A stretch of 64,000 nt of DNA from Thermoanaerobaculia bacterium (GCA_963664405.1 OY761158.1:6020556-6084555); one strand, 5' to 3'. Positions 5,977-33,246 are shown, counted from the stretch's first letter. The notes: generated from the letters alone by a model not told the origin. Made by a program: numbers and translations.

Positions 5977-6298
5977 GACGACCGAACGACCACAACCTAC
6001 TCGTAACCCCCATCCACTCACAGCTCGATCCAAGGACTTTGATGGTTTCCAGTCAGACTGGCGTGAGGGCACAAGCCGCTAGGAGCGTTGGCCCTCGAGG
6101 CCGTTTTCTCGGACGATTCGGCTCCCTCACGCGCACTTTTCCATCATGGCCCGGCGTGCACACATCGTCACGCCAATCTGAGGCCGGAGATACGTCTGCT
6201 GTCTGACCTACCACTCTCAGCCCGAAGACCGAGAAAACCAGAATCTCTCTATGAGTTGAAATCAACTACTTGACACGGGAGTCCAGATACACGCTCCT

Positions 6299-7825
6299 AG
6301 CCCCAGAAAACGCGCCTTCGGCCCGTTTTCCGGCCCATCCCCGCCTGAGAACTACTCGCCTGTCCGATACTCGGATGATGAAATGGACTCCCTGGCGACT
6401 TCGATCGGCATCTGTGTGCCGCGGGTCGCCCAAACCGAAACTCTAGTACTGGAAGGGAGCCCCATGAAGCATACCGTTATCGGTGTCGACCTGGCCAAGG
6501 ATGTGTTCGAGATCGCCGTGTCGCATGAGCCGGGAAAGGTGGCGGACCGGCATCGAGTCCGAAGAGCTGGCTTTTTGTCTTTCTTCGCACAACGCAAGCC
6601 CACGACGGTGGTCATGGAGGCCTGTGGCTCCGCGCACTACTGGGGCCGGGAAATAGGAGAGCTCGGCCACTCGGTCGTCCTGCTGCCACCCCACCTGACC
6701 CACCGCTATGTCGGCGCCCACAAGACCGATCGAACCGACACCAAAGGCATGCTCGAGGCGTATCGCAACGAAGACATCCTGCCTGTCCCTGTCAAGTCGC
6801 TCGAGCAACAAACGCTCACCACTCTGCATCGGATGCGCGCGGCCTACATCGGCGATCGTACGGCTCACTGCAACGCTCTACGCGGGCACTTGCGAGAATT
6901 CGGACACTTCATCCCTCTAGGACGTGCGCGCGTCGTGCCGAGGGTCCGAGAGCTGATCGCCGACGCCGAGACGGACATCCCCATGGCATTGCGCCCTCAC
7001 TTCGCAGCGCAATGCGATCAGATCGAGCAGTTCCACGAGCGTATCGCGGAGATCGACAACCACATCCAAGCGCTCGCCAAACAGCTCGAAGCCGTGCAGC
7101 TGCTGATGACCATTCCTGGCATCGGGGTCCTGACCGCCACGGCCCTGGTGGCCTGGATCGGAGATGTCTCTCGCTTCAAGAGCGGACGCCATCTTGCCAG
7201 CTATCTCGGGCTCACGCCGCGCGAACACTCCAGTGGCGCACGACGCTGGCTCGGACGCATCAGCAAACGCGGCGACGGCTATCTGCGCACGCTCCTGATC
7301 CACGGGGCCCGCTCCGTGCTGTCGTGGGCGAAGAGAAAACAACCCCAAGGCCGCCTCCAACAGTGGGCGCTGCACGTCGATACCCGCCGAGGACCCAACA
7401 AAGCCGCCGTTGCCCTCGCCAACAAGTTGGCCCGCATTGTCTGGGCCGTGTGGACCCGTAAGCGCGCCTTCGAGCCCAAGCCGTTGCTCGCTGCTGCCTA
7501 AGACGACCGAACGACCACAACCTACTCGTAACCCCCATCCACTCACAGCTCGATCCAAGGACTTTGATGGTTTCCAGTCAGACTGGCGTGAGGGCACAAG
7601 CCGCTAGGAGCGTTGGCCCTCGAGGCCGTTTTCTCGGACGATTCGGCTCCCTCACGCGCACTTTTCCATCATGGCCCGGCGTGCACACATCGTCACGCCA
7701 ATCTGAGGCCGGAGATACGTCTGCTGTCTGACCTACCACTCTCAGCCCGAAGACCGAGAAAACTAGAATCTCTCTATGAGTTGAAATCAACTACTTGACA
7801 CGGGAGTCCAGATACACGCTCCTAG
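6299..7825 (+). mobile_element. IS110-family element copy 2 (apparently intact). The left end abuts the right end of copy 1, giving a head-to-tail tandem
   Basis: Boundaries are inferred from where the copy1/copy2 identity begins and ends. There are no obvious terminal inverted repeats, as is typical of the IS110 family. An outward-facing TTGACA lies 24 bp from the right end. The right end is followed by a 16-bp perfect palindrome. Confidence 0.75.
6464..7501 (+). CDS. IS110-family (DEDD) transposase
   Basis: 345 aa from MKHTVIGVDLAKDVFEIAV. The N-terminus has the typical DEDD/RuvC-like fold and the C-terminal domain is present. An identical second copy lies at 5131-5976. Confidence 0.9.
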   Translation: MKHTVIGVDLAKDVFEIAVSHEPGKVADRHRVRRAGFLSFFAQRKPTTVVMEACGSAHYWGREIGELGHSVVLLPPHLTHRYVGAHKTDRTDTKGMLEAYRNEDILPVPVKSLEQQTLTTLHRMRAAYIGDRTAHCNALRGHLREFGHFIPLGRARVVPRVRELIADAETDIPMALRPHFAAQCDQIEQFHERIAEIDNHIQALAKQLEAVQLLMTIPGIGVLTATALVAWIGDVSRFKSGRHLASYLGLTPREHSSGARRWLGRISKRGDGYLRTLLIHGARSVLSWAKRKQPQGRLQQWALHVDTRRGPNKAAVALANKLARIVWAVWTRKRAFEPKPLLAAA

Positions 7826-7830
7826 GTTGG

Positions 7831-7868
7831 GTAGGTCTGGGAATGGTGATTGCCATTCCCAGACCTAC
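7831..7868. repeat. Perfect 16-bp-stem palindrome GTAGGTCTGGGAATGG-tgattg-CCATTCCCAGACCTAC abutting the IS110 right end. Likely REP-like target of the IS
   Basis: Read directly from the sequence. The IS110/IS1111 family is known to insert next to palindromic repeats. Confidence 0.7.
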
Positions 7869-7875
7869 TGATGCC

Positions 7876-7960
7876 GTTTGGCGCCGCGGACGGCGCGCGT
7901 CGCCCATCCGGAGGACCGGATGGCCTCCCTGCTTCGGAAGGGGTGCCTCTTGCGGATTGA
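7876..7960. repeat. REP-like repeat (type a) with hairpins GCGCCG-cgga-CGGCGC and CCATCCGG-agga-CCGGATGG
   Basis: A second copy with the same order and hairpins lies at 9827-9990. The hairpin core is shared with the 127-133-bp repeat family at 20078 and 23550. Confidence 0.65.
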
Positions 7961-8745: not shown

Positions 8746-9780
8746 ATGAAGGTCCTATCTAGAATCGGTGCAGGTGCGTTCAGCCTCTTGACTCTGGCGA
8801 CCTCGGTGCCGGGTCCCGCCCGGGCGCAGAACGTCGGGCTTTGCGTGGCGAATGCATTTGCGGATCAAGTGGCTGACTTGATTGAGGAGCACGACGGTGC
8901 GACCCTGATCCGCTTTGGCAACCTGCCGGACTTGGTGGAAAAGGTCGGGGGTTGTGACGCCGTTATCGCCGTCCCAGGTGGAGGCACCGACCAGGTTCTC
9001 CGCGCCGGGTCCCGCTTACAGTGGCTACAAACCGCGAGCGCTGGGGTCGAGACCCTACTCCGCTCCGACGAGCTCGTTGCTTCGGACGTGACACTGACCA
9101 ACGCAAAGATCCTGCAGGGCCCGGAGATCGCCGATCACGCTTTCGGACTGCTGTTGACGCTCACCCGTGACATCCGTTTCTTCAACGCGCAGACCTCATG
9201 GAACCGCGCAAACTCTCTTCCAATCATCGAGCTGCGCGGCAAGACCGCTCTCATTATCGGCCTAGGGGGCATCGGTACTCAGATCGCGCAGCGTGCGGCG
9301 GCGTTCGAGATGCGCGTCATCGCTGTCGATCCCAAGGACATTCCGCTCAGTAGGGATGTAGCCTATGTCGGCAAACCGGACCAGCTCGACGAGCTCTTGC
9401 CGCAGGCCGACGTCGTCTTTAGCAGCGTCCCGCATACCCCCGCTTCTCGCGGCATGCTCGGCAAGGAGCAGTTTGCGCGGATGAAGGAAGGTGTCTATGT
9501 GGTCAACGTGTCGCGCGGCCCGATCATTGACACCGACGCTCTGGTTGCCGCGCTGCGCTCCGGCAAAGTGCGTGCAGCGGGTCTCGACGTCACCGACCCC
9601 GAGCCATTACCCGACGGTCATCCTCTGTGGTCGATGCACAACGTCGTCATCACGCCGCACATAGCGACTGTGTCTGACCATTCCATCGAGCGGCGAGTCG
9701 AACTGTTCCGCGACAATATCGGGCGTTTCCTCGATAACCGTCCCTTGCGCAACGTGGTCGACAAGAAGAAGGGGTACTGA
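8746..9780 (+). CDS. D-isomer-specific 2-hydroxyacid dehydrogenase family protein, NAD-binding, with an N-terminal signal-peptide-like segment
   Basis: GxGxxG motif (GLGGIGTQIA). The catalytic region includes RGPIIDTDAL and a conserved His in the C-terminal part. The N-terminus MKVLSRIGAGAFSLLTLATSVPGPARAQ looks like a cleavable signal peptide. Confidence 0.8.
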   Translation: MKVLSRIGAGAFSLLTLATSVPGPARAQNVGLCVANAFADQVADLIEEHDGATLIRFGNLPDLVEKVGGCDAVIAVPGGGTDQVLRAGSRLQWLQTASAGVETLLRSDELVASDVTLTNAKILQGPEIADHAFGLLLTLTRDIRFFNAQTSWNRANSLPIIELRGKTALIIGLGGIGTQIAQRAAAFEMRVIAVDPKDIPLSRDVAYVGKPDQLDELLPQADVVFSSVPHTPASRGMLGKEQFARMKEGVYVVNVSRGPIIDTDALVAALRSGKVRAAGLDVTDPEPLPDGHPLWSMHNVVITPHIATVSDHSIERRVELFRDNIGRFLDNRPLRNVVDKKKGY

Positions 9781-9826
9781 GTCTGAGAGTGGTGAATACC
9801 ACTCTCAGACTCAGTTTGTTGTTTGG
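9778..9826 (+). terminator. Rho-independent terminator: 15-bp perfect stem TGAGTCTGAGAGTGG / CCACTCTCAGACTCA, loop tgaata, then a T-rich tract gtttgttgttt
   Basis: Read directly. The stop codon of the upstream gene is the first three bases of the stem. Confidence 0.8.
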
Positions 9827-9990
9827 CGCCGCGGACGGCGCGTGTTGGCCATCCGGAGGACCGGATGGCCAACTGGCTTCGGAGCAGGCGATCTTCGGAA
9901 GACCTGCTGTTTGGCGCTGCGGTGGCGCGCGTTGCTGATCAGGCGGACCGGTGGGACCCCTGGCTTCGAAGGAGCGATCTCCTTCCTAGC
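9827..9990. repeat. REP-like repeat (type a), second copy. It carries the same GCGCCGCGGACGGCGC and GGCCATCCGGAGGACCGGATGGCC hairpins as 7876-7960
   Basis: Direct sequence comparison. Confidence 0.65.
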
Positions 9991-17321: not shown

Positions 17322-18095
17322 ATGCGTATCGCTAGCTGGAACGTCAACGGGCTCCGCTCGCGCATCGACTTCGTCTTGCATTGGCTCCGGGCTAGGCAGC
17401 CTGACGTCGTGGGTATCCAAGAGCTCAAGCTCGAAGATGAGCACTTCCCTCATGCTGAGCTCGCGGCTGTCGGCTATCAGGCCCTGACCCATGGGCAGAA
17501 AAGCTGGAACGGCGTTGCCATTCTCAGCCGTCATCCGATCGAAGTCGTACAGCGAGGTCTTCCAGGCCAGGAGGAGATGGGCGCCCGCCTGATCACGGCG
17601 CGCACCGGCGACATCCTGTTTACGACCGTGTACTGCCCCAACGGTAAGAGCCTCAGCCATGAAGACTACGCGCGTAAGCTGCTCTGGTACGAAGATCTGC
17701 GCAGCCATCTCGAGCAGAATCAAGATCCGGCCGGTTCCGCCGTTCTATGTGGAGATTTCAACATCTGTCCAGAGCCTCTGGACAGCTGGAACGAAGACGC
17801 GCTGGTAGGGCATATCTTCCACACCGAGGCCGAGCGAGAGCGATTCCAAGCTGTTCTCGACTGGGGGCTGACTGATCTCTTCCGACGCCTCGAGCCCGAG
17901 CTACAGGCCTTTTCGTGGTGGGACTATCGTGCGGGTGCTTTTCACAAGAACATGGGGCTGCGTATCGATTTCCTGCTTGCAACCGCAGCGCTCGCCGAGC
18001 GGGTCCAGGCGGTCGAGATCGATCGCGAATATCGCAAAAAGAAAGACGGTCTCACCGCTTCGGATCACGCTCCCGTGATAGCGGACTTGGGCTAA
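17322..18095 (+). CDS. xth: Exodeoxyribonuclease III (AP endonuclease)
   Basis: MRIASWNVNGLR start and EEP-family motifs (QELK, CGDFNI, SDHAPV). Confidence 0.95.
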   Translation: MRIASWNVNGLRSRIDFVLHWLRARQPDVVGIQELKLEDEHFPHAELAAVGYQALTHGQKSWNGVAILSRHPIEVVQRGLPGQEEMGARLITARTGDILFTTVYCPNGKSLSHEDYARKLLWYEDLRSHLEQNQDPAGSAVLCGDFNICPEPLDSWNEDALVGHIFHTEAERERFQAVLDWGLTDLFRRLEPELQAFSWWDYRAGAFHKNMGLRIDFLLATAALAERVQAVEIDREYRKKKDGLTASDHAPVIADLG

Positions 18096-18296
18096 ACAAC
18101 GTGGCACCGAGGACGACGCACCCGGACCGAGTGTCCTGTACCAGTAGTTCGTCACATAACTCGCTGGCCCTTTTGCGTCCTGCCGTCGTTGCACCTCCTC
18201 GAAATATTCCCAATATGACTTCGTCGGCGCGCCTTGGCAGCCCACAAAATGACTGCGCGATTTATGCAACGAACCACTGATACAGGACACTAGGAA

Positions 18297-19057: not shown

Positions 19058-20011
19058 TCAGCCGCTTCCCAGGTAGGCTCGATTGAGGATCTCCGCGAGG
19101 GGATCCGGAGAGCTGCGGCCGCTCAGACGGCGCATCGCCTGGAAGTATGGCGGCTGGTATCGCAGCCGCTTAGGCAAGTGCGGTAGGACGCGGCGGATCA
19201 CGTCGGTGGCTCTGGCCGCTGCTCGACGCTCCTTCTCGCCGTAGGCGAAGCCGAATTTGTCACGAACAGCGGCCGGCAAGAGGCCGATGGTCAAGGTGCG
19301 CAGGCCAACCATGAGTGGAGCGAAGAGCGGGTCGGAGGGCACGAAGAGGTAGGCCGCGATCTCTCGTGCTGCCTTGCCGATGGCCAGCTCCTCGGAGTTC
19401 CACATTTCTTGGTTGTAGGCCTGAAAGTCGGACCAAGAGTGCGGTACATCCCCGTCCGCCAGGCCGAAAAGCCGGGCAAATACCCGGGTCTCTTGGTAGT
19501 AGCTCTCCTTGGTCTCGTCGGAGAGCGGTGCATAAAAGGTTTCGTACATGGCGATCGAGCTCTCCCAGAGGGTGGCGTGCACCCAGACGAGACCGCGCCG
19601 ATCGTTGGCGTCGTAGCGATCGCCAGGTGAGTAGGCGCCGACAGTCTCGTCGAAGGTGCCGTGGATTGCCTGATGGACTCGGTGCACATGGCGGGCTGCA
19701 TTGAGGGCCGAGTCGAGGTCGCCCCAAACCATCGGAAAGATCTGTCTGAAGGTGCGCTGAAATCGGCCACGAGGATCTGTCTTGGTTCTTGAGTGCTCCG
19801 CGATGCCCTGCGCGACCTGCGGGTGTGCGATCTGGAGAAGGGCGGCCCGACCGGAGCCGAGGAAAATCGCCGCGTGTCGATTGACTTTCCACATCTCGGA
19901 TGCGGAGCCGAAGATTCCCTCGACGGGCTCGTGCACTCCTGCAGCGACGATCTCGAGTTGTCGCTCTAGCTCGTCGGTTCGGACGAGGTGGGGGTGTTCT
20001 GGTGTCGCCAT
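19058..20011 (-). CDS. MpaB/DUF2236-family oxygenase-like protein
   Basis: Length and conserved central region typical of DUF2236 (ER-bound oxygenase MpaB-like). Confidence 0.55.
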   Translation of the reverse strand: MATPEHPHLVRTDELERQLEIVAAGVHEPVEGIFGSASEMWKVNRHAAIFLGSGRAALLQIAHPQVAQGIAEHSRTKTDPRGRFQRTFRQIFPMVWGDLDSALNAARHVHRVHQAIHGTFDETVGAYSPGDRYDANDRRGLVWVHATLWESSIAMYETFYAPLSDETKESYYQETRVFARLFGLADGDVPHSWSDFQAYNQEMWNSEELAIGKAAREIAAYLFVPSDPLFAPLMVGLRTLTIGLLPAAVRDKFGFAYGEKERRAAARATDVIRRVLPHLPKRLRYQPPYFQAMRRLSGRSSPDPLAEILNRAYLGSG

Positions 20012-20077: not shown

Positions 20078-20209
20078 CTAGGCTCCAGAAATGATGGCTA
20101 TCATTTCCTCCGCCTAGTTGTCTTTTGGCGCCGAGGACGGCGCACTCAGGCGTTGCTTCCTATTCGCTCCGGGAAACGGCTCTGGCCGAATACTCGGACA
20201 CGCTCCTAG
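20078..20209. repeat. Single copy of the 127-133-bp structured repeat unit (CTAG...GAAATGAT-nnnn-ATCATTTC...TTGGCGCCGAGGACGGCGC...CCGAATACTCGGACACGCTCCTAG)
   Basis: About 95% identical to the units at 23550-23809. It lies in the divergent promoter region between the 19058-20011 gene (minus) and the 20449-21348 gene (plus). Confidence 0.75.
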
Positions 20210-20448
20210 CCTGGATTATTCATGAAGCTCCTACTACGGTGCCGCAGCTGCCTGAATCTACTGCGTTGCGCTCTGACTGGGCGTCCCCGTCGCGCCCCTC
20301 GACGTATTGCCCAATACGCCTGCGGTGCTCTCGGTCGCGACGCCTTGTATCTTCAGGCATCTGCGGCACCTTGCTACGGACCTCATGAATAGTCCAGGCT
20401 AGAGAACGCGATAGCATCGACCTTCTCGCCCCGAGGAGGTCCGATCGA

Positions 20449-21348
20449 ATGCGTTTCTCTTTTTGGCCCACGCCCACTCAATCGTGGAGCGAAGTTCTCT
20501 TTCTCGCGAAGCATGTCGAGAAGACCGGCTGGGACGGCTTCTGGTATGCCGATCACTTCATGCCGAACAGCACCGATCTCGACGTTCCGATCAACGAATG
20601 TTGGACTGTTCTGGCCGGAATTGCTGCTGCCGTGCCGCGTCTCCGTTTGGGCCCGCTGGTCACCGGCAACACTTACCGGCATCCTGCTGTACTGGCGAAG
20701 ATGGCGGCGACGGTGGACCAGATCAGCGGCGGAAGAGTGGTGCTCGGCCTCGGCTCAGGCTGGCAGGAGAACGAGCACAAGGCTTACGGGATCGAGTTCT
20801 CGACCATTCCCGGTCGGCTGGCCCGCTTGGACGAGGCATGTCAGGTGATCAGAGGTCTCTTCAGCGGGGATCGGACCGACTTCGACGGTAAGTATTACCA
20901 ACTGAGAGGGGCGCCGCTCTCCCCCAAGCCGGTTCAGAGCCCCCTGCCGCTGCTTGTTGGCGGCGGCGGCGAGAAGGTCACCTTGCGGATTACCGCCAAC
21001 TATGCCGATGAGTGGAACGTTTGGGCCGACGTCGAGACGTTGAAGCACAAGATGGCCGTCCTCGACGCGCATTGTGAGGATTTAGGTAGGGATCCAGCCG
21101 AGATCAAGCGCTCCGCGCAGGCTATGGTTTTCCTCAGTGACGACCCAGCCGAGGTCGAGAAAGCGAGCTCGCGCCCGGGCCTTCCGGTGATGGCGGGAAA
21201 TGTGGAGGAGGTGCGCGACACAGTTGCGGCATATGCCGCTACGGGTCTCGACGAACTGATCGTTCCCGACTTCGTCATGGGGCCGCGAGAGCGGAAGCTG
21301 CCGATGTTGGATCAGTTCATCGAAGAGGTGGCCTCAGTTGCCCGTTGA
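20449..21348 (+). CDS. LLM-class F420-dependent oxidoreductase
   Basis: Luciferase-like TIM-barrel signatures (GWDGFWYADHF, GGRVVLGLGSGW). Confidence 0.8.
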   Translation: MRFSFWPTPTQSWSEVLFLAKHVEKTGWDGFWYADHFMPNSTDLDVPINECWTVLAGIAAAVPRLRLGPLVTGNTYRHPAVLAKMAATVDQISGGRVVLGLGSGWQENEHKAYGIEFSTIPGRLARLDEACQVIRGLFSGDRTDFDGKYYQLRGAPLSPKPVQSPLPLLVGGGGEKVTLRITANYADEWNVWADVETLKHKMAVLDAHCEDLGRDPAEIKRSAQAMVFLSDDPAEVEKASSRPGLPVMAGNVEEVRDTVAAYAATGLDELIVPDFVMGPRERKLPMLDQFIEEVASVAR

Positions 21349-22027
21349 AAGGGTGATGAAGGTGGCTGTCGGCGGTAGCGCTCTCTTTCTCGCTCTGGCG
21401 GCGTCGAGCCCCGCTGCAGAGCAGCCTCGGCGGGTTTCCTTCGACACCACCGACGGCGGGGTCATCGTTGCCGATCTCTACCCGGGAGGAGCGCACGGCG
21501 TCGTGCTCGCCCACGGTGCAGTTTTCGATAAAGAGAGCTGGAGCAAGCAGGCCGTCGCGTTGGTGGCCGAGGGCCTGACCGTGCTGGCCATCGACTTCAG
21601 GGGCTACGGCAAATCACAGGGCGGAAGCGCGAGGGATGATCTTTCGTTGGACGTGCTCGGCGCAGTCGCCTATCTCCGCGAGCAGGGCGCCGAGCAGGTC
21701 TCTGTGCTGGGTGGAAGCATGGGCGCCGCGGCTTCCGCTTCAGCCGCACGCCGGGCCGATGTGGGCTCGATTCACAAGCTCATTCTTCTGGCTCCGCCTC
21801 CCTTTGGCGGCGCCGAGAATCTGCGCGCAACGGCGACGCTTTTCGTTGTGAGTCGAGGCGACGGTCTCAGGTCGTCGGTAGAGAAGCACTTCGAAGCGGC
21901 GCCGGAGCCAAAGAGGCTCGTCGTTCTGAAGGGAAGCGCCCACGCCCAACATATCTTCAAGACCGGTCGAGGCGCCGAGCTGATGAGCCTCCTGGTCGAG
22001 TTCCTCGTCGAAGAACCGACTCAATAG
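21338..22027 (+). CDS. Secreted alpha/beta-hydrolase (dienelactone-hydrolase-like)
   Basis: Signal peptide. The nucleophile elbow GGSMG and HGAVFDKESW resemble DLH-family hydrolases. Confidence 0.7.
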   Translation: MPVERVMKVAVGGSALFLALAASSPAAEQPRRVSFDTTDGGVIVADLYPGGAHGVVLAHGAVFDKESWSKQAVALVAEGLTVLAIDFRGYGKSQGGSARDDLSLDVLGAVAYLREQGAEQVSVLGGSMGAAASASAARRADVGSIHKLILLAPPPFGGAENLRATATLFVVSRGDGLRSSVEKHFEAAPEPKRLVVLKGSAHAQHIFKTGRGAELMSLLVEFLVEEPTQ

Positions 22028-22110
22028 TTGCAGATCGTGTCCTGGCTTTGCTTGGAGGTGATGAGCTAGAACTGCGCCTCTCATGTTGGGTGATCGCGGG
22101 TGTGAGCCGT

Positions 22111-23535
22111 TCAGAAGGGGGTCCTTTCGGCCCAGGGGCGTGCCTTCTCGAGCTGGGCCGCCAGTCGAAAGAGAGAAGCTTCGTCGCCGAAGGGGGCGGC
22201 GAATTGAATGCCGATCGGGAGACCGGCGGCGCTCCAGGCGAGGGGAACCGACATCGCCGGATTGCCCGCCACGTTCATGAGCTGGGTGAAGGCGATGGTC
22301 TGGAAGAGGTGAATCATGGTGTCGTCGACATCATCGGTGGAGAGAGACAGCAGACCCAGCTTCTTCGGCGGAGTCGCCATGGTGGGGGAGAGTAGGACGT
22401 CCCAATTGTCGAAGAATTGGGCCACCTGGCGGCCTACTCGGTGCACGACCCTGATGGCGAGCGCGTAGTCGGCACTGGTAGCCTGCTTCGCGTTCTCCGC
22501 CATGGAATAGGTGACCGGCTCGACATCATCCTCGGTGTATGCCCTCCCGACCACTTTCGCGCGCTCTTCGAGATTGGCGCGGATGTTGGCGCCGACGATG
22601 GTGCCGGCGGCTCTGGATAGGTCCTCTCGATCGAGCTCGGGCGCCGCCTCTTCGACTTCGTGTCCGAGCTCTTGGCATAGGCGGGCGACTTCCTCAGCGG
22701 CGGCAATGCACTCCGGGTCGACCTGCGAGTTGTTGAAGGCGCGGGTAGTGAGAGCGATGCGTAGTTTGCCGGGAGGGCGGGAAAGCTCTCCCAGGTAGGG
22801 GCGAGTGGGAGGCGGCGCCCAATACGGATCGCCGGGTTCGGGTCCGGCGGCGATGTCGAGCAGGGCGGCGCTGTCGCGAACCGAGCGACTGACTACGTGC
22901 GCCGTGCTCAGGCCACTCCAACCTTCGCCCAGGTCGGGCCCGGAGGAGACGCGGGCGCGGCTGGGCTTGAGACCGAAGAGTCCGCAGCACGATGCCGGAA
23001 TACGGATCGAGCCCCCGCCGTCACTGGCGTGTGCTGCCGGGAGGATGCCGGCCGCGACCGCGGCGGCGGCGCCGCCCGACGAACCTCCCGCGACGTGCTC
23101 CAGGTTCCATGGATTGCGGGTTACGCCGAAGAGGACCGATTCTGTGGAAGTCGTGAGCCCGAACTCGGGAGATGCGCTCTTGCCGAAGACCACCAGGCCC
23201 GCGTTCTTGTAGCGGCGCACCAGGTAGCTGTCGTGATCGGCGACCTGGTCGGCGTAGAAGCGACATCCGTGGGTGGTGATGGCGCCCTTGTAGTAGACAC
23301 CCAGATCCTTGAGCAGGAAGGGGACCCCTCGCAGTGGACCCGCGGGCAGATCTCCGCGCGTCCGCGCTCTTGCCTCATCGAACATGGGGATTGCAATGGA
23401 GTTGAGATCCGTGCCGACTTCCTCCGCCCGGGCAATGGCGGCTTCGAGGATCTCGGTGGTCTCGAAATCCCCCGCGGCGATATGCGAGGCAAGGGCTAGG
23501 GCATCGAGCTTTGCGTACTCTTCGAACGACAACAT
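22111..23535 (-). CDS. Amidase (amidase-signature family)
   Basis: GGSSGG signature, conserved Ser-cisSer-Lys region, 474 aa. Confidence 0.9.
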   Translation of the reverse strand: MLSFEEYAKLDALALASHIAAGDFETTEILEAAIARAEEVGTDLNSIAIPMFDEARARTRGDLPAGPLRGVPFLLKDLGVYYKGAITTHGCRFYADQVADHDSYLVRRYKNAGLVVFGKSASPEFGLTTSTESVLFGVTRNPWNLEHVAGGSSGGAAAAVAAGILPAAHASDGGGSIRIPASCCGLFGLKPSRARVSSGPDLGEGWSGLSTAHVVSRSVRDSAALLDIAAGPEPGDPYWAPPPTRPYLGELSRPPGKLRIALTTRAFNNSQVDPECIAAAEEVARLCQELGHEVEEAAPELDREDLSRAAGTIVGANIRANLEERAKVVGRAYTEDDVEPVTYSMAENAKQATSADYALAIRVVHRVGRQVAQFFDNWDVLLSPTMATPPKKLGLLSLSTDDVDDTMIHLFQTIAFTQLMNVAGNPAMSVPLAWSAAGLPIGIQFAAPFGDEASLFRLAAQLEKARPWAERTPF

Positions 23536-23549
23536 GAGGTTCTCTCCTT

Positions 23550-23870
23550 CTAGGCTCCAGAAATGATGGCTATCATTTCCTCCGCCTAGTTGTCTCTTGG
23601 CGCCGAGGACGGCGCACTCAGGCGTAGCTTCTTATTCGCTCCGGGAAACGGCTCAGGCCGAATACTCGGACACGCTCCTAGCCTCCAGAAATGATTGATA
23701 TCATTTCCTCCGGCTAGTTGCCCTTTGGCGCCGAGGACGGCGCACTCGGGCGTAGCTTCCTATTCGCTCCGGGAAACGGCTCAGGAGGAATACTCGGACA
23801 CGCTCCTAGCCTCCGGGAGTGATCGCTATCTAGTTTCTGTTTGGCGCCGAGGACGGCCCATTCGGAGTCC
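23550..23870. repeat. Tandem array of about 2.5 copies of the 127-133-bp structured repeat, immediately upstream of the amidase start codon
   Basis: Units at 23550-23676, 23677-23809 and a degenerate partial 23806 to about 23870. Each is bounded by CTAG and contains the GAAATGAT/ATCATTTC and GGCGCCGAGGACGGCGC hairpins. There are no spacers, so this is not CRISPR. Confidence 0.8.
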
Positions 23871-24657
23871 TCTGACCTGGACTCCGGCGCTCGCCGAGGC
23901 GACCGATGATGGCGCGTAGGGCCTCCAGACCTTCGACGAGTCGCGGGGAGGGGCGACCGAGGATCGCTTCAGGGACCACGAAGACCCTTTTCTTGCGCAA
24001 CGCCGCGAGATCCTTCCACGCTGGGTTCTCGTAGATCAACTCGGGACGGATCTTGTCGGTCTTGATGCCGCACCAGGAGAGCACGATGGCGTCGGGGTCG
24101 AGCTCTCGGACCTCGTTATCGGTCAGCGGGCGACTCTTTACTTCCTCGTTAGCGAGCGGATTGCTGCCTCCGGCGGCGACGATCAAGTCGTGGGTCCAGC
24201 TGCGGCGACCCGGTGCAATTACCGGTTTGGGCCACCATTGGACCAGGACGGAGGGTGGATTCTCGTAGGGGTGGCTGCCGGGTTCCAAAGCGTCGCGCAA
24301 GCGAGCAATCAGGGCAGCCCCCTCCGCTGGGTGCCCAAGATGCTCGGCGATCTGGGTAATGCTCTCGAGCACATCTCCGATCGATGTGGGCTCTGGCGCA
24401 AGGAAAGGGAGCGCGGCGGCTTGAAGCTTCTCGATGACCACTTCGTGACCGGGGACGGTGAGCGAGGCCAGGACCAGGTCGGGCTCGAGGGCGGCGACCT
24501 TCTCGATGTCGGGGCTCAGATCAGGGCCGACGCGGGGGAGCCCGTCTACGACCTCGGCGGGGAAGTCACTATGGTCGTCAACACCGACGAGGCAACTAGC
24601 GAGCCCGAGCTCACAGAGGATCTCGGTGTTCGAGCAGGCCAGAGAAACAACGCGCAT
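23830..24657 (-). CDS. TroA/BtuF-like periplasmic-binding-fold protein (cobalamin/siderophore-type substrate-binding protein). No obvious signal peptide
   Basis: MRVVSLACSNTEILCELG start and class-III SBP fold signatures. The C-terminal 14 codons extend into the repeat array. Confidence 0.65.
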   Translation of the reverse strand: MRVVSLACSNTEILCELGLASCLVGVDDHSDFPAEVVDGLPRVGPDLSPDIEKVAALEPDLVLASLTVPGHEVVIEKLQAAALPFLAPEPTSIGDVLESITQIAEHLGHPAEGAALIARLRDALEPGSHPYENPPSVLVQWWPKPVIAPGRRSWTHDLIVAAGGSNPLANEEVKSRPLTDNEVRELDPDAIVLSWCGIKTDKIRPELIYENPAWKDLAALRKKRVFVVPEAILGRPSPRLVEGLEALRAIIGRLGERRSPGQRTPNGPSSAPNRN

Positions 24658-24700
24658 CGAGACTTACTGTATCGTCGAGGGGAGAGCTTTCGATTTGGCG

Positions 24701-25453
24701 ATGCGATTGGCGGGTTTGCGCTGGGTGCTTGGTAAGACGTTCTGGGGAGCCGTCTTACTCGTTGGCGTGTCCTGGTATTTCAAGGGTTCGCCGGTTCCCC
24801 CGGAGGCCGTCGACCCTCGGCTGCTCGAGCCGCCTCGGCAGCTCGCCACCGACCGTGCGGCTTTCGACTTCGAGTACAAGGGGAAGCAGTGCCGTGTGCG
24901 CCCGGTCGCTGATTACGAGATTCACGGCCTGGTTGTCAGCCACAACAATATCGAGAGCCTTGCCGACATCTACCATGACAGCACCTCGGTCGACACCAAG
25001 GATCTGTGTGTGCTGTGGGGAAACAACCTGCGCAGTGATGATTTTCACCAAGTGCGTTTTTCGAGCGGTCCTTTCACTTGCTACTTTCGCTACCCGGCCG
25101 CAGTCTCCTTTGATCATGAAGGGCTCTCCAATAACCACCTCATTACCGACGATCTCCTAGTGCGACAGCGTATCGGGCAGGTCAATGTGGGTGACCAGGT
25201 TCGCCTCAGAGGCTTCCTGGCGAACTATCAGATGGAGGACTGGGAGTCGTTCTGGAGGGAGACGAGCACGACCAGGAAGGATTCTGATTGTGAGGTGATG
25301 TTTGTCGAAGAGGTGGAGATCCTACGGCGAGGAACGCCGGGGTGGTACGCCGCATACAGGCTCGGTTGGGTTCTACTCGCCGCGATTCCGGTGCTCTTTG
25401 TGATCGCACTGTGGCTGGAGTCGGCCCCTCCGTCGGCGGCCACGCGCGGTTGA
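24701..25453 (+). CDS. Hypothetical membrane-anchored protein (N- and C-terminal TM segments)
   Basis: ORF with the start moved to M at 24701 to avoid overlap with the convergent gene. Hydrophobic termini. Confidence 0.4.
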   Translation: MRLAGLRWVLGKTFWGAVLLVGVSWYFKGSPVPPEAVDPRLLEPPRQLATDRAAFDFEYKGKQCRVRPVADYEIHGLVVSHNNIESLADIYHDSTSVDTKDLCVLWGNNLRSDDFHQVRFSSGPFTCYFRYPAAVSFDHEGLSNNHLITDDLLVRQRIGQVNVGDQVRLRGFLANYQMEDWESFWRETSTTRKDSDCEVMFVEEVEILRRGTPGWYAAYRLGWVLLAAIPVLFVIALWLESAPPSAATRG

Positions 25454-25458
25454 CGCTC

Positions 25459-25977
25459 TCAGCTCACCACGAAAGTCTGCGCGGCACGATCCTTCTTGGG
25501 GCCGGGGAAGGCGAGGGCGCGGCCGTGGGCGACGACCCAGACTCCCGGTTGCAGAGTGCCGGTCGCGAAGATCGCTTCAGTGAGGTTCTGTAGGGCGTCG
25601 GAGCGCTTCATCTCGAAGGGGCGGATGGCCCCGGTGAGAATGACCGGAATCTCGATGGGGTTCAGGCCACCGCGGAGTAGCTCTCCGGTCTGGGTGAGGG
25701 TGTCGGTGCCGTGAAGGATGACGACACCATCGCTGCCAGTGCTCCTGTTTTCGGCGCCGGCGAGTCGTGCGGCTTCCAGGATTCGTTGGCGATCGGTATC
25801 GGTCATCTCCAGGGAGTCCTTGGACATCAGTTCGATTACCGAGATCTCAGTGTTCTCGAGGCGAAGCTCGGCCAACATTCGGCGGACCTGACTGGAAAGG
25901 TTGACCAATTCGCCGCTGTTCTCGTCGTAGGTCTTCTCTATGGTGCCACCCGTGGTGATGATAGTGATCCGCCTCAT
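25459..25977 (-). CDS. Asparaginase-domain protein (stand-alone N-terminal domain of type I L-asparaginase)
   Basis: TGGTI motif (ITIITTGGTIEKTYD) and ILHGTDTL. Confidence 0.7.
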   Translation of the reverse strand: MRRITIITTGGTIEKTYDENSGELVNLSSQVRRMLAELRLENTEISVIELMSKDSLEMTDTDRQRILEAARLAGAENRSTGSDGVVILHGTDTLTQTGELLRGGLNPIEIPVILTGAIRPFEMKRSDALQNLTEAIFATGTLQPGVWVVAHGRALAFPGPKKDRAAQTFVVS

Positions 25978-29587: not shown

Positions 29588-31084
29588 TCAGATCCGATCG
29601 GGGAAGGTGGCGGTGCCGGGATTTTGAAGCGCCCGTTGTGCAGCGACGCGAAGGTAGTGATCTGGCGCGACGCCATGCAGCCGCGCAGTCTCGCAGAGCG
29701 AGTAGAGAATGGCTCCGACCTCGCATCCTCGGCGAGATCGAAACTGTAGATAGTTCTTTCGGCCGACGACGGGTCCTCGCAGCGCGTTCTCGGCACGGTT
29801 GTTGTCCAGCGGTAGCCGTGCATCCTCGAGGAAGCGAGTCAGCCCCTCCCAGCGAGCCAGGATGTACTTGACCGCCTTGATGAAGTCGCTGCGCGGAAGC
29901 CCCGTTTGCGACAGCGCCCAAGCCTTGATCGCCGCAATCACCTTCGATGAGCGCTTCACTCGAGCCTCCGCCCGGCGCAGCAGAGTGTCCGCCGGTTCAA
30001 GATCCAAGGCGTCGATCTCGCGCTCGATCTCGTAGAGCTCTCCGATCAACTTCAAGATCTGGGCGCACTCCCGCGGCCGATGCTTCTGCGCATCGCGGAA
30101 TTTGCGCAAACTGTGAGCCCAACAATTCGCCAGACGCAGGGGCCCGGCCCGGGAAAGCTGCTCGTACACTGGGTAGCCGTCCGCGATCACGATTCCGTCG
30201 TAAGCGCCGAGGATCTCCTCGCCCGCAGCGAAGCTCTTGCGCCCCAGCGTGTACCAGGCATGCTGATTCGTGCTGAGCACCCAGAGAGTTTCTCGTCTCG
30301 AGTGCTTGCCCTGCGTCAGCAGGAAGCCCGTCTCGTCGGCATGGAGGAAGTCAGATCCCAGGATCTGCTCCTTGAGCGCTGCATAGGTCGGTCGCAGCAC
30401 CTCGGCTAGGGCTTGCTCCTGGTCCCACAGCGTCTGCTTCGTCACTCGTAGACCGCTGCGGCTGAGCTCCTTGACCTGGCGATGCAGAGGCATGTGATCG
30501 ACGATCTTCGACGTCGCCACCGAGACCGCAAACTCCAGCGAGTACCGACCGCCGGGCACCAGCCGCGGATGCGGATTCGGCGCCGTCCCAACTGCGCTGT
30601 TGCAAGCGCAACGGTACTTCTGGCGCCGATGCACCAGACGCACCACGCGCTTCATCTCGATCGTGATCTCTTCGGAGTCTTGTGTCTCGACGCCCAAGGG
30701 CTGAAGCGTCGGGTCTCCACAGGCCGGACACGTCCGCTCGCCCTCTCCCAGCACGTGCTCCAGGACGACCACCGGTAGGTCCGGTTGCGGCGTCGGCCCG
30801 TGGCCGCGCTGCTTGCGCGGTCGCGCTTCCGAGTCGGGGAGCTCCCGGGCCTGGCGCTGGATCTCGAGCTTGCCAAGACCCAGAAGCAACTCGAGCTCGG
30901 CCTGATCGGCGTCCTCGCCGCGCAGGCTCGCATTCTCTCGCTTCAGCTGGCGGACCAGGTCCAGCAGACGGTCGTTTTCCGTGCTCAGAAGCGAATAGTG
31001 CGCGAGTACGACGTCGAGAGAGGCGATCGTTTCGGGCACCTGCATCGGATGCCCCTTTCTCTCATGCCGGTGAGCGAATCGCAA
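29588..31084 (-). CDS. IS66-family transposase TnpC
   Basis: Zinc-finger CPACG...CxC region and DDE core. 498 aa. Confidence 0.9.
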   Translation of the reverse strand: MRFAHRHERKGHPMQVPETIASLDVVLAHYSLLSTENDRLLDLVRQLKRENASLRGEDADQAELELLLGLGKLEIQRQARELPDSEARPRKQRGHGPTPQPDLPVVVLEHVLGEGERTCPACGDPTLQPLGVETQDSEEITIEMKRVVRLVHRRQKYRCACNSAVGTAPNPHPRLVPGGRYSLEFAVSVATSKIVDHMPLHRQVKELSRSGLRVTKQTLWDQEQALAEVLRPTYAALKEQILGSDFLHADETGFLLTQGKHSRRETLWVLSTNQHAWYTLGRKSFAAGEEILGAYDGIVIADGYPVYEQLSRAGPLRLANCWAHSLRKFRDAQKHRPRECAQILKLIGELYEIEREIDALDLEPADTLLRRAEARVKRSSKVIAAIKAWALSQTGLPRSDFIKAVKYILARWEGLTRFLEDARLPLDNNRAENALRGPVVGRKNYLQFRSRRGCEVGAILYSLCETARLHGVAPDHYLRVAAQRALQNPGTATFPDRI

Positions 31085-31857: not shown

Positions 31858-31948
31858 CGCTTTACTCGAGCTCGTAGCTCTCGTCTAGCCCCGGCGAATA
31901 GATCGGCGGATTGCCGCGCCAGTGGCCCTGCAGAAAGCGGACCGATGA
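31858..31948. repeat. Degenerate duplicate (about 90 bp, 2 mismatches, one creating a stop) of the 3' end of the NIPSNAP-like gene. The second copy at 33395-33485 is the genuine gene tail
   Basis: Direct comparison of 31858-31948 with 33395-33485. Confidence 0.8.
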
Positions 31949-33027: not shown

Positions 33028-33246
33028 CCGCCTAGTCTGACCGCAGTTGAAGAAACTCCCGCGGCTTCTTCTGATGGGCTGCTCGGTAGGGGTGTGCCTA
33101 GAAACGGGGTTTTGGGTGGCCTGGCGGCCACTCCGGTCCGTCATGGGGGTTGGGGCCTTAGAAGCGGCGAACTCGAGCCTTACTTTTCAACTTCATCGAG
33201 TCGAAAGACCTTCTGAGATGTGTCACGGTGGCCGTCAGGGGATATA

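What the first reader, a model, noticed from the sequence alone, without database searches (positions are those of the whole stretch)
20078..23870. Novel 127-133-bp structured repeat family in promoter regions, with a REP-like hairpin core shared with a second repeat type
A unit bounded by CTAG, carrying two hairpins (GAAATGAT-nnnn-ATCATTTC and GGCGCCG-AGGA-CGGCGC) plus CCGGGAAACGG, occurs once at 20078-20209 between divergent genes. It occurs 2.5 times in tandem at 23550-23870, immediately 5' of the amidase start.

The same GCGCCG-nGGA-CGGCGC hairpin is the core of a different repeat, paired with CCATCCGG-agga-CCGGATGG, at 7876-7960 and 9827-9990. Six to seven copies of the core lie in 64 kb.

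Length, internal structure and promoter-proximal placement resemble MITEs or large REP/BIME-like elements. They could influence expression of the adjacent genes. The partial identity with the IS110 ends is intriguing.
Basis: seen in the sequence. Interest (0 to 1): 0.55.

Follow-up and report, generated by a model that had tools for sequence, protein, structure and literature searches.

The report
REP-like mosaic repeats in Acidobacteriota
The repeats are real members of a lineage-wide family of small hairpin-forming intergenic elements (REP/BIME-like) of Acidobacteriota that mostly sit just after stop codons rather than in promoters, and the "identity with IS110 ends" arises because an RNA-guided IS1111-type insertion sequence has landed inside the conserved tail of one such repeat.

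Summary
A 128-nt CTAG-bounded unit occurs once at 20078-20209 and 2.5 times at 23550-23870. Its GC-rich hairpin (H2) recurs in a second repeat type at 7826-7960 and 9776-9990.

It is not locus-specific. The same architecture occurs in at least six other Acidobacteriota genomes: a variable hairpin H1 with (C/G)TAG feet, a linker, the invariant H2, then an optional H3 and an optional tail ACTCGGACACNCTCCTAG. H1 shows strong compensatory variation.

Family-wide, the elements lie at gene 3' ends, and the TAG of H1's foot often serves as the stop codon. These are published traits of GTAG-type REPs. Promoter placement is the exception.

A 95-98% identical relative lacks the 20078 unit. It carries an IS5-like IS at the same CTAG, so the unit is a precise 124-nt insertion with CTAG on both sides.

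The "IS110 end identity" has a simple cause. An IS1111-family IS (6376-7814) sits inside a repeat tail. Its 3' non-coding region carries a 10-nt guide complementary to that tail, and a 55%-identical IS carries a different guide at the same position, matching its own flank.

Verdict: a new member of a known kind. What mobilises it is unknown.

The parts
20078..20209 (+). Single type-1 unit: CTAG + 124-nt body + CTAG. Contains H1 at 20078-20117, H2 at 20127-20143, and the tail ACTCGGACACGCTCCTAG at 20192-20209.
   Evidence: It is absent from the 96%-identical relative L192, which has an IS5-like IS flanked by CTAG at exactly this CTAG.
23550..23809 (+). Two complete type-1 units in head-to-tail array (23550-23681 and 23678-23809), sharing their CTAG boundaries.
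   Evidence: Unit 23550 is 97% identical to the distant 20078 copy but only 89-92% identical to its neighbour. The array is absent from L192.
23806..23870 (+). Truncated, older unit: half of H1, CTAG, linker, and H2 with one mismatch. It is overlapped by the 3' end of the minus-strand periplasmic-binding-protein ORF, whose stop is the TAG of CTAG at 23830-23833.
   Evidence: 25.8 bits. An H2-like remnant is also seen at the orthologous place in L192.
7826..7960 (+). Type-2 element: H1 at 7831-7868 (16-bp stem, GTAG...CTAC feet), H2 at 7880-7896, H3 CCATCCGG-AGGA-CCGGATGG at 7904-7923.
   Evidence: 65.2 bits.
9776..9990 (+). Type-2 element starting inside the stop codon of the 2-hydroxyacid dehydrogenase gene. 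H1 at 9776-9815 (18-bp perfect stem), then (H2-H3-spacer) twice with an 87-nt period; the second copy is degenerate.
   Evidence: Orthologous sites in L199, L200 and L202 show different H1 modules or an empty site.
6289..6375 (+). 87-nt unit lacking H2, lying between the two IS copies: 3' part of a tail (ACACGCTCCTAG), H1-like hairpin CCCCAGAAAACGCGCC-TTCG-GCCCGTTTTCCGG, spacer, and 5' part of the next tail (..CCGATACTCGGA).
7815..7825 (+). 3' part of the repeat tail (CACGCTCCTAG) that forms the right flank of IS copy 2.
6376..7814 (+). IS1111-family (IS110 superfamily) insertion sequence, 1439 bp. Transposase at 6464-7501 (345 aa); subterminal inverted repeats TGGACTCCC (6384-6392) and GGGAGTCCA (7802-7810); 3' non-coding region at 7502-7814.
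   Evidence: Pfam PF01548 and PF02371. NCBIfam 'IS110 family RNA-guided transposase', 337 bits. Ends fixed by alignment with L112. A second, 5'-truncated copy lies at 3229-3282 plus 5132-6289.
7598..7649 (+). Predicted target-recognition loop of the IS's seekRNA / bridge RNA: AGCCG[CTAGGAGCGT]TGGCCCTCGAGGCCG[TTTTCTCGGACGATT]CGGCT. Positions 7604-7613 are the reverse complement of the right flank ACGCTCCTAG. Positions 7633-7638 (CTCGGA) equal the left flank.
   Evidence: (55 of 20000 shuffled flanks reach 10 nt). The homologous position in L112 carries a 9-nt match to L112's own flank (236 of 20000).
18102..18119 (+). Decayed H2 without H1 (TGGCACCGAGGACGACGC), lying 7 nt after the stop codon of gene 17322-18095. 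Shared with the relative L192.
   Evidence: (7.5 bits, H2 part only).

Best explanation
The finding is part of a family of REP/BIME-like, non-coding, hairpin-forming mosaic repeats specific to a group of Acidobacteriota (Thermoanaerobaculia and relatives).

Architecture. A unit is built from modules:
- H1: a roughly 40-nt imperfect palindrome with (C/G)TAG...CTA(G/C) feet, a conserved TCC/TCC internal loop and a conserved apex (TG-S-TG..TA-S-CA), but an otherwise variable and compensated stem.
- A linker of about 8 nt.
- H2: the invariant hairpin GGCGCCG-NGGA-CGGCGC.
- Optionally a third hairpin (H3).
- Optionally a conserved tail ACTCGGACACNCTCCTAG.

The 128-nt 'type-1' unit of the finding is one such composite, and the 'second repeat type' is another.

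Shown:
- The elements are dispersed.
- Their presence varies between close relatives.
- One copy is a precise insertion bounded by CTAG.
- They pile up head to tail.
- Family-wide they occupy the space just after stop codons, often donating the TAG.
- A resident IS1111-family IS lies inside a repeat tail, and its 3' non-coding region carries a guide complementary to that tail.

Inferred:
- They spread as non-autonomous elements that enter next to a (C)TAG. The most likely route is as single-stranded hairpins handled by a Y1 (RAYT/TIRYT-type) transposase, as proposed for GTAG REPs.
- Each copy's terminal CTAG offers a new entry site, which would yield the tandem array.
- Once transcribed, they act like REPs, as stable 3' stem-loops that affect mRNA decay or read-through.
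- The IS uses the tail as its RNA-guided landing site through its seekRNA. No RNA or transposition was measured.

For: Dispersal:
- H2-centred elements with the same architecture occur in MAGs SMAG_U6810, SMAG_U14477, SMAG_U14398, CAXWPL01, JAYZDP01 and in the relative ERZ25074053.
- A type-1 unit in L046 is 93% identical to the window's while its flanks are unrelated.

Structure:
- In 57 copies, 89% of cells pair against 72% in shuffles (0 of 500 shuffles reach it). Sliding the partners drops pairing to 26-49%.
- Five inner-stem pairs carry 14-30 double changes.
- There are 33 different inner arms among 57 copies, whereas H2 is invariant.

Placement:
- Contexts are convergent 15, co-directional 18, divergent 4.
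- In about 18 of 28 sense cases the gene's stop is the TAG of H1's foot.
- TAG stops occur in 20 of 28 such genes against 83 of 233 others, Fisher p = 4e-4.
- These are published properties of GTAG REPs (PMC3733652).

Mobility:
- L192 (96% identical flanks) reads ..TTAC-CTAG-[IS5-like IS]-CTAG-CCTGG.. where the window reads ..TTAC-CTAG-[124 nt]-CTAG-CCTGG...
- The array copy at 23550 is closer to the distant 20078 copy (97%) than to its neighbour (89-92%).
- The orthologous 3' end of the dehydrogenase gene shows four states: empty, or three different H1 modules.

IS:
- Homology with L112 stops exactly at TGATGA.. and ..CCAGATA.
- The flanks rejoin to ACTCGGA|CACGCTCCTAG, which is the type-1 tail.
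- The guide-to-flank match covaries between the two ISs.
- The layout (a match to the top strand lying 5' of a match to the bottom strand, the non-coding region 3' of tnp, subterminal inverted repeats, a 345-aa transposase, the GL-P----SG motif) is as described for IS1111 seekRNAs (PMC11187229).
Against: - No mobilising enzyme is identified. The composite unit has no terminal inverted repeats.
- The only Y1 transposase gene in the window (32092-33027) and four homologues elsewhere are flanked by their own unrelated inverted repeats, not by H1 or H2.
- Only one clean filled-versus-unfilled site was found. The amidase-PBP site is not a clean empty site, because L192 keeps an H2-like remnant there.
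- Whole-genome copy number in the source genome could not be measured. Two other 7-kb pieces of the same genome have no copy, and the window has none in 24-64 kb.
- Gene contexts in the MAG loci rest on my own GC3-based ORF caller. It placed 10 of 52 arrays inside called ORFs and missed one real gene in the window.
- In co-directional contexts the orientation is about even (10 sense, 8 antisense), so there is no evidence for a strand-specific RNA role.
- H2's invariance across genomes whose orthologous proteins are only 64-83% identical is unusual for REP families, which are normally species-specific. Simple selfish spread does not explain it.
- The left-flank guide match (6 nt) is not significant on its own.
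Confidence: 0.7

Rival explanations
1. The 128-nt unit is a miniature derivative of the IS110/IS1111 element: left end plus right end without the transposase. It would be mobilised in trans by the IS recombinase, and the tandem units would mirror the tandem IS copies.
For: ACACGCTCCTAG ends both the unit and the 1525-bp IS period. The sequence after it (CCCCAGAAAA..) resembles the unit's start CCTCCAGAAA.
Against: Alignment with a 55%-identical IS (L112) shows that IS homology ends at 6376 and 7814. The shared sequences therefore lie outside the IS. The two flanks rejoin to an intact tail. The unit contains none of the IS's subterminal inverted repeats (TGGACTCCC / GGGAGTCCA) and no seekRNA region. 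The tail and H1 occur in MAG loci where tblastn with this transposase found no homologue within the up-to-8-kb stretch fetched around each copy. None of 80 related IS loci carries H2 or an intact tail; the only pattern matches there were single-mismatch matches to a 10-nt partial tail pattern, consistent with chance.
Confidence: 0.04
2. The units are MITEs moved by a DDE transposase of the IS5 family. These enzymes typically duplicate a 4-bp YTAR/CTAG target. The CTAG on both sides would be a true target-site duplication.
For: CTAG (or CCTAG) flanks the 124-nt body. In the relative, an IS5-like IS (DDE_Tnp_1) with CTAG duplication occupies the very same CTAG. The tail end ..ACACGCTC|CTAG weakly resembles that IS's right end ..GCAGACTC|CTAG. 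Other CTAG-flanked palindromic elements of 190-197 nt share these sites.
Against: The composite unit has no terminal inverted repeats: its left end GCTCCAGAAA.. does not match the reverse complement of its right end, GAGCGTGTCC... H1 arms differ between copies (33 variants), which a sequence-specific DDE transposase would not tolerate. The conserved asymmetric TCC/TCC internal loop points to recognition of a folded single strand. No matching autonomous IS was found.
Confidence: 0.12
3. The elements are host cis-regulatory or structural sequences kept by selection and spread mainly by recombination, not selfish mobile DNA. Candidate roles are 3'-UTR stabilisers, U-tract-less terminators, or binding sites for a conserved host protein that reads H2.
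For: H2 is invariant across genera. Placement right after stop codons is stereotyped. Hairpin structure is conserved by compensation. Convergent intergenic spaces are sometimes filled exactly by one H1-H2 unit.
Against: The precise 124-nt insertion relative to a 96%-identical relative. Head-to-tail arrays and module swapping at one orthologous site within closely related genomes. No U-tract or terminator signature. No Rfam family. Both orientations occur relative to transcription. The two explanations are not mutually exclusive; REPs are thought to be both.
Confidence: 0.12
4. A purely local segmental or tandem duplication with no wider significance.
For: All copies in the window lie within 7.8-23.9 kb and on one strand.
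Against: Copies occur in several other genomes in unrelated contexts. The neighbouring array units are less alike than distant ones.
Confidence: 0.02

Closest known systems
GTAG-tagged REP families and REPtrons (Di Nocera, De Gregorio & Rocco 2013, PMC3733652; RAYT model of Nunvar / Ton-Hoang)
   Same: Short imperfect palindromes carrying a (C/G)TAG tag. Mostly between co-directional and convergent genes and within a few nt of 3' ends. The tag often supplies the TAG stop codon. Copies occur singly, in groups and occasionally overlapping ORF ends. Presence varies between relatives.
   Different: Here the tag is on both feet, as part of the palindrome, and is CTAG more often than GTAG. H1 is always coupled head to tail with a second, invariant hairpin (H2). 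The stem sequence is highly variable within one genome. No RAYT flanked by these repeats was found; the window's Y1 transposase has unrelated inverted repeats (TIRYT-like, as reported for Acidobacteria).
BIMEs of E. coli, BOX elements of Streptococcus pneumoniae, RIMEs of Rhizobiaceae (mosaic intergenic repeats; from established knowledge)
   Same: Modular composition from a small set of hairpin modules in variable combinations and copy numbers; intergenic; 60-200 nt.
   Different: BIMEs alternate inverted REPs, whereas these arrays are strictly head to tail. There is no sequence similarity, and no evidence here for IHF, gyrase or Pol I binding. The family spans several genera with an invariant module.
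IS1111-family ISs guided by a seekRNA / IS110 bridge RNA, several of which target REPs (ISPa11, ISPpu9, IS621; Siddiquee et al. 2024 PMC11187229; PMC12288879)
   Same: For the IS at 6376-7814: DEDD transposase of 345 aa, subterminal inverted repeats, long 3' non-coding region, a guide complementary to the top strand of the target lying 5' of a segment matching the target's own strand, and insertion into a repeated palindromic-element family.
   Different: A different, undescribed IS (the best metagenomic relative is 55% identical) with a new target, the tail CTCGGA|CACGCTCCTAG of this acidobacterial repeat. No RNA or transposition data.
MITEs
   Same: Small, non-coding, a precise insertion flanked by a 4-5-bp direct repeat (CTAG or CCTAG), dispersed.
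   Different: No terminal inverted repeats on the composite unit and no autonomous partner identified.

Membership tests
REP (GTAG-type) elements | Short (20-40 bp) imperfect palindrome able to form a stem-loop | tested here: met
   H1 is about 40 nt. 89% of cells are paired across 57 copies, with compensatory changes in 13 of 22 pairs.
REP (GTAG-type) elements | Conserved GTAG tetranucleotide at one end | tested here: inconclusive
   The 5' foot is CTAG in 18, GTAG in 10 and absent in 29 of 57 copies. Many of the copies without it are internal units of arrays. The 3' foot is CTAG in 24 and CTAC in 9. The tag is related but not the canonical one-sided GTAG.
REP (GTAG-type) elements | Extragenic, predominantly downstream of genes (co-directional or convergent contexts), close to 3' ends | tested here: met
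   Convergent 15, co-directional 18, divergent 4. H1 starts at the stop codon in about 18 of 28 sense cases. The gene calls are my own heuristic.
REP (GTAG-type) elements | High copy number per genome (tens to hundreds) | tested here: inconclusive
The window has 6-7 copies, all in 16 kb. The source genome could not be scanned.
REP (GTAG-type) elements | Association with a RAYT gene flanked by the same REPs (REPtron) | tested here: not met
   A Y1_Tnp gene is present at 32092-33027 (Pfam 29 bits; NCBIfam REP_Tyr_transpos 43 bits, below the cut-off of 80). It and four homologues are flanked by their own inverted repeats, with no H1/H2 hit. This tests only the loci in hand.
BIME (E. coli type) | Clusters of REPs in alternating orientation separated by defined linker motifs | tested here: not met
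   All arrays are head to tail: window 23550-23870, and L036, L103, L045, L011.
MITE | Terminal inverted repeats matching an autonomous IS | tested here: not met
   The unit ends GCTCCAGAAA.. and ..GGACACGCTC are not inverted repeats and do not match the IS5-like, IS1111, IS256 or IS66 ends seen here.
MITE | Target-site duplication and filled/empty site polymorphism | tested here: met
   CTAG (CCTAG) lies on both sides of the 124-nt body at 20078-20209, and the relative lacks the body at the same CTAG. This is one site only.
IS1111 family (for the IS at 6376-7814) | DEDD transposase of 330-350 aa with a GL-P----S/TG motif, subterminal inverted repeats, and the long non-coding region 3' of tnp | tested here: met
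   345 aa, motif GLTPREHSSG, PF01548 and PF02371, NCBIfam 337 bits. Subterminal repeats TGGACTCCC / GGGAGTCCA. 313-nt 3' non-coding region. Criteria taken from PMC11187229.
IS1111 family (for the IS at 6376-7814) | The non-coding region encodes a seekRNA with segments matching both strands of the target | tested here: inconclusive
   A 10-nt complement of the right flank (p about 0.003) at a position where a related IS carries a 9-nt complement of its own flank (p about 0.012). The left-flank match is only 6 nt. No RNA data.

The most novel reading that the evidence does not exclude
H2 is not just another palindrome but an invariant recognition anchor, read by a conserved protein or a Y1-type transposase. 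Beside it, different palindromic H1 modules would be inserted or exchanged at a (C)TAG. That would make a site-specific 'hairpin cassette' system that preferentially uses TAG stop codons, so insertions are neutral for the upstream gene. It would explain H2's invariance across genera, the swapping of H1 at one orthologous site, the CTAG-bounded precise insertion, and the co-occurrence of several unrelated CTAG-flanked palindromic elements at the same sites.
Probability: 0.12. Interest if true: 0.6.

Novelty: new member of a known kind. Interest (0 to 1): 0.35.

Why it matters
- It adds a well-resolved REP/BIME-like family for Acidobacteriota, a phylum with almost no described repeat biology.
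- It offers a natural example of a module-by-module mosaic: variable H1, invariant H2.
- It contains a clean insertion event bounded by CTAG.
- It gives a natural pairing of an IS1111-type RNA-guided IS with its genomic target, which can be read directly from the sequence.
- For annotation it matters practically. These elements supply stop codons, extend or truncate ORF ends, and attract ISs and MITEs, so they mark hot spots of rearrangement.
- It does not open a new mechanism unless the H2-anchor idea proves right.

Tried and rejected
- Rfam at gathering thresholds over the whole window, and an E-value scan of 6200-10100, gave nothing. The best hit was BjrC80 at E = 2.6.
- PLSDB plasmids, with the unit (distant mode) and with 8 kb of context (near mode), gave no match.
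- Exact look-up of the amidase found no record. The source was later found through the dehydrogenase.
- A metagenome scan for relatives of the IS transposase gave only relatives of 55% identity or less. None carries H2 or an intact tail; the only pattern matches were single-mismatch matches to a 10-nt partial tail pattern, consistent with chance. They were useful only for fixing the IS ends.
- A regex for the RAYT motif Y..NP found nothing, because the window's Y1 protein lacks 'NP'. It was found later through synteny with L192.
- I tested whether that Y1 cassette is flanked by H1/H2. It is not: the covariance model gives no hit there, and homologues have their own inverted repeats. A weak resemblance between the Y1 inverted repeats (CCCCAGAAAAGTGTCACC) and H1 arms (CTCCAGAAATGATGG) was judged not significant.
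- The viral contig scan for H2 gave 2 hits without H1 architecture, consistent with chance.
- Promoter and terminator scans of both loci found no promoter-like site and one marginal terminator-like site.
- The third hairpin of the type-1 unit (CGGC-TCAG-GCCG inside TCCGGG..CTCGGA) is predicted but not conserved in copy 3 or in L046, so it is not claimed.
- Folding z-scores of the whole unit are only about -2 on either strand.
- Integron attC sites, CRISPR arrays, DNA-uptake sequences and pyrrolysine/PYLIS-type recoding were considered and dropped. There are no R'/R'' boxes or integrase, arrays have only 2-3 units with palindromic 'spacers', the copy number is far too low, and the ORFs end at conserved C-termini.

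Full report
**1. Observation**

The sequence at the stated coordinates is as described. The unit CTAG-[124 nt]-CTAG occurs at 20078-20209 and, head to tail, at 23550-23681 and 23678-23809, followed by a truncated copy at 23806 to about 23870. Tandem Repeats Finder reports period 128, 2.1 copies and 91% matches. The repeat finder groups the three full copies at 97% and 92% identity, and self-BLAST agrees.

The core TTGGCGCCGNGGACGGCGC is found 6 times with at most 1 mismatch, all on the + strand, against 0.01 expected. The second repeat type, at 7826-7960 and 9776-9990, shares this hairpin (H2) and has the CCATCCGG-AGGA-CCGGATGG hairpin (H3). Both types therefore have the same plan: long hairpin H1, a linker of about 8 nt, H2, then variable 3' modules.

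**2. Gene context in the window**

Pfam identifies the following:
- 19058-20011 (-): MpaB/Lcp oxygenase
- 20449-21348 (+): luciferase-like monooxygenase
- 22111-23535 (-): amidase
- 23830-24657 (-): periplasmic binding protein
- 7999-8703 (+): TerC
- 8746-9780 (+): 2-hydroxyacid dehydrogenase
- 9986-10918 (-): EamA

The 20078 copy is between divergent genes. The 23550 array is between two minus-strand genes and antisense to them, 14 nt from the amidase ATG. The 9776 element starts inside the dehydrogenase stop codon, between convergent genes.

**3. Wider distribution**

Most are single chance matches inside genes of GC-rich bacteria. Many, however, come from Acidobacteriota MAGs: Thermoanaerobaculia SMAG_U6810, SMAG_U14477 and SMAG_U14398, and Acidobacteriota CAXWPL01 and JAYZDP01. 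There the core is preceded by a hairpin of H1 type and a linker.

Units occur singly or in head-to-tail arrays of two or three, with periods of 63-128 nt depending on which modules are present. Some carry H3 variants and the tail (A/T)TACTCGGACACNCTCCTAG. One CAXWPL01 locus (L046) holds a type-1 unit 93% identical to the window's, with nothing else in common. Nothing matched in PLSDB plasmids, in Rfam or meaningfully in viral contigs.

**4. Structure**

I aligned 57 H1-linker-H2 copies from the window and the MAGs and counted pairs for an explicit structure.
- 89.1% of cells pair, against 72.4% after shuffling (0 of 500 shuffles reach it) and 26-49% when partners are slid.
- Inner-stem pairs 16-39, 17-38, 18-37, 19-36 and 22-33 show 30, 20, 25, 14 and 28 double changes, with at most 2 unpaired cells each.
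- The apex T-G-S-T-G..T-A-S-C-A is nearly invariant.
- A 3x3 internal loop (TCC on both arms) recurs and gives the palindrome a polarity.
- H2 never varies.
- There are 33 different inner arms among the 57 copies. The 5' foot is CTAG in 18 and GTAG in 10.

A covariance model built from this alignment finds, in the window, five full units, the degenerate 23803 copy and a weak 9873 copy. It finds none in 24-64 kb.

**5. Placement across the family**

I used a simple GC3-based ORF caller of my own. It is imperfect: it missed the binding-protein gene and placed 10 of 52 arrays inside called ORFs.
- Arrays with two called neighbours fall between convergent genes (15), co-directional genes (18: 10 sense, 8 antisense) and divergent genes (4, one a mis-call).
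- In 28 cases with a co-oriented upstream gene, H2 typically starts 43-47 nt after the stop. In about 18 of these the stop codon is the TAG of H1's (C/G)TAG foot.
- TAG is the stop in 20 of 28 such genes against 83 of 233 other genes (Fisher p = 4e-4).
- CTAG is four-fold under-represented in these sequences, and 35% of all CTAGs lie within 140 nt of an H2.

These are the features reported for GTAG-tagged REPs: mostly co-directional and convergent contexts, within 20 bp of 3' ends, with termini that 'often provide the ... stop codon (TAG)' (PMC3733652). No sigma-70-like promoter and no convincing intrinsic terminator is predicted in the two flagged loci. 'Promoter-proximal' describes these two copies, not the family.

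**6. Evidence of insertion**

The amidase has a 94%-identical homologue on a contig of a close relative (ENA ERZ25074053), fetched as L192. Shared segments between L192 and the window are 83-99.6% identical, and 95-98% identical across the segments that flank the repeat loci.

At the 20078 site the relative reads ..catgttaC-CTAG-[1.5-kb IS5-like IS with inverted repeats GAGTCTGCGCGG]-CTAG-CCTGGATTATTC.., while the window reads ..catgttaC-CTAG-[124-nt unit body]-CTAG-CCTGGATTATTC... The simplest reading is one ancestral CTAG hit independently by two elements. The type-1 body is thus a precise insertion bounded by CTAG.

In the array, the 23550 copy is 97% identical to the distant 20078 copy but only 89-92% identical to its neighbour. 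This fits repeated entry at a resident copy's CTAG better than local slippage. The amidase-PBP spacer is 25 nt in the relative, so the array is absent there. An H2-like remnant (CGCCGGGGCGGTACTCAGGCGT) remains, so this is not a clean empty site.

**7. Module exchange**

The dehydrogenase protein is 100% identical to one on a 6.78-Mb contig, which identifies the source (also ENA ERZ28669063 ctg41100). It has orthologues in the relative (L199), in CAXWPL01 (L200) and in a more distant genome (L202). The 3' end of this one gene shows four states:
- L202: no element.
- L199: TGA-c-GTAG[H1 with the 'type-1' sequence]CTAC-linker-H2-H3.
- Window: a different H1, whose perfect stem includes the gene's own ACTGA, followed by (H2-H3) twice.
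- L200: TAG, then a 190-nt CTAG-flanked palindrome, then a third H1, CTAG, linker, H2 and the start of the type-1 3' region.

H1 is therefore exchanged while linker-H2-H3 stays. The 'type-1' and 'type-2' modules recombine freely, which makes this a mosaic family.

**8. The IS110 link**

Self-BLAST shows 5132-6300 equal to 6657-7825 (99.9%). A 5'-truncated first copy is itself split by an IS256/Mutator-family IS at 3283-5131. The period is 1525 bp, but the IS is shorter than that.

Alignment with the best metagenomic relative (L112, 55% protein identity) shows that homology starts at TGATGA (6376) and stops at ..GGAGTCCAGATA (7814). The left flank ..CCGATACTCGGA and the right flank CACGCTCCTAG rejoin to the type-1 tail ACTCGGA|CACGCTCCTAG. 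The 87 nt between the two IS copies (6289-6375) form a unit lacking H2: tail end, an H1-like hairpin, a spacer and the next tail start.

The IS has the IS1111 hallmarks listed by Siddiquee et al. (PMC11187229):
- a 345-aa DEDD transposase with GLTPREHSSG;
- subterminal inverted repeats TGGACTCCC / GGGAGTCCA;
- a 313-nt non-coding region 3' of tnp.

In that region a predicted stem / internal-loop / hairpin (7598-7649) carries CTAGGAGCGT, the reverse complement of the right flank ACGCTCCTAG. Only 55 of 20000 shuffled flanks reach 10 nt. On the other side of the loop is CTCGGA, equal to the left flank, though 6 nt is not significant alone. At the homologous position L112 carries TCAAGTCCC, the reverse complement of its own right flank GGGACTTGA (236 of 20000).

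The guide thus changes with the target, in the order described for IS1111 seekRNAs. I infer that the conserved tail is this IS's RNA-guided landing site, and that the three intact tails in the window are further potential targets. No RNA data exist.

**9. What moves the repeats**

This is not settled.
- The composite unit has no terminal inverted repeats, and no autonomous partner was found.
- Through synteny with L192 I found a Y1 (IS200-like, RAYT/TIRYT-type) transposase gene at 32092-33027. Pfam Y1_Tnp scores 29 bits. The best NCBIfam match is 'REP-associated tyrosine transposase' at 43 bits, below its cut-off.
- The gene lies in a 1.34-kb cassette that is 99.6% identical between the two genomes, while the flanks are about 89-90% identical. 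At least four paralogues lie on the source contig.
- Its own flanks are 23-nt inverted repeats unrelated to H1/H2. Four homologous loci show the same kind of inverted repeats and no H1/H2.

This matches the 'TIRYT' situation reported for Acidobacteria. It neither proves nor excludes a role in moving H1/H2. Single-strand hairpin mobilisation next to (C)TAG remains an inference from the REP analogy, the conserved asymmetric loop and the CTAG boundaries. An IS5-type DDE mechanism, which also yields CTAG duplications, is the main rival.

**10. Verdict**

The feature is real, structured and dispersed, and it is an insertion in at least one place. It is best filed as a new acidobacterial member of the REP/BIME-like class, with GTAG-REP-like placement and stop-codon donation.

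Two points deserve notice beyond the ordinary. First, an invariant module (H2) is conserved across genera and coupled to a highly variable, exchangeable palindrome (H1). Second, the sequence shows directly a pairing between an IS1111-type guide and its repeat target.

The searched literature holds no description of this family. Interest is moderate.

Noticed in passing
window 20206-20402: A 197-nt near-perfect palindromic element, CTAG-CCTGGATTATTCATGAAG...CTTCATGAATAGTCCAGG-CTAG, with 56-nt arms 80% complementary. It directly abuts the type-1 unit. A second copy lies upstream of TerC in the close relative (L199, about 2066-2262). A different 190-nt CTAG-flanked palindrome follows the dehydrogenase stop in L200.
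   Followed up: partly
window 31958-33296 (gene 32092-33027): A cassette encoding a Y1 (IS200-like, RAYT/TIRYT-type) transposase, with 23-nt inverted repeats at 31964-31986 and 33254-33276. Its right end is duplicated as a perfect 50-nt tandem repeat (33245-33344) joined at a CTAG. The cassette is 99.6% identical to the relative while the flanks are about 89-90% identical, so it has been mobile recently. At least 4 paralogues lie on the source contig.
   Followed up: partly
window 18127-18294: A 168-nt MITE-like insertion with inverted repeats of about 17 nt (GAGTGTCCTGTACCAGT / ACTGATACAGGACACTA). It is absent from the 98%-identical relative L192.
   Followed up: partly
window 3283-5131: An IS256/Mutator-family IS (transposase 3705-4904 on the minus strand, 25-bp perfect inverted repeats, 5-bp duplication) inserted into the 5'-truncated copy of the IS1111-family element.
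   Followed up: partly
window 29588-31771: IS66-family genes (transposase 29588-31084, HTH protein 31439-31771) lie between DnaE and the Y1 cassette and are absent at this place in L192. A 96-nt duplicate of the 3' end of gene 33397-34569 lies at 31858-31953.
   Followed up: no
window 868-917, 1867-1908, 2705-2738: Arrays of GCATG-rich repeats with an 8-nt period surround a ParA-like ATPase gene (889-1638). They look like iterons or parS sites of a plasmid, chromid or island partition module. The first 24 kb of the window is also where all the ISs, MITEs and H1-H2 repeats cluster.
   Followed up: no
window 24458-25977: An asparaginase N-terminal-domain ORF of only 172 aa (25459-25977, minus strand) is followed by a region whose best ORF is on the opposite strand with no Pfam hit. 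This is possibly a frameshifted or decayed gene. The relative has different genes here (DHDPS, STAS).
   Followed up: no
L112 about 121-180 (metagenome contig Ga0255056_10047160): The related IS1111-type element is inserted 4 nt after a perfect 24-bp-stem hairpin (ACGGTCTTGTGGGACATTGAGATT...). This looks like another case of this IS group landing beside a palindromic repeat.
   Followed up: no
window + MAG loci (323 kb): CTAG is four-fold under-represented (240 observed, 947 expected from base composition). 35% of all CTAGs lie within 140 nt of an H2 hairpin.
   Followed up: yes
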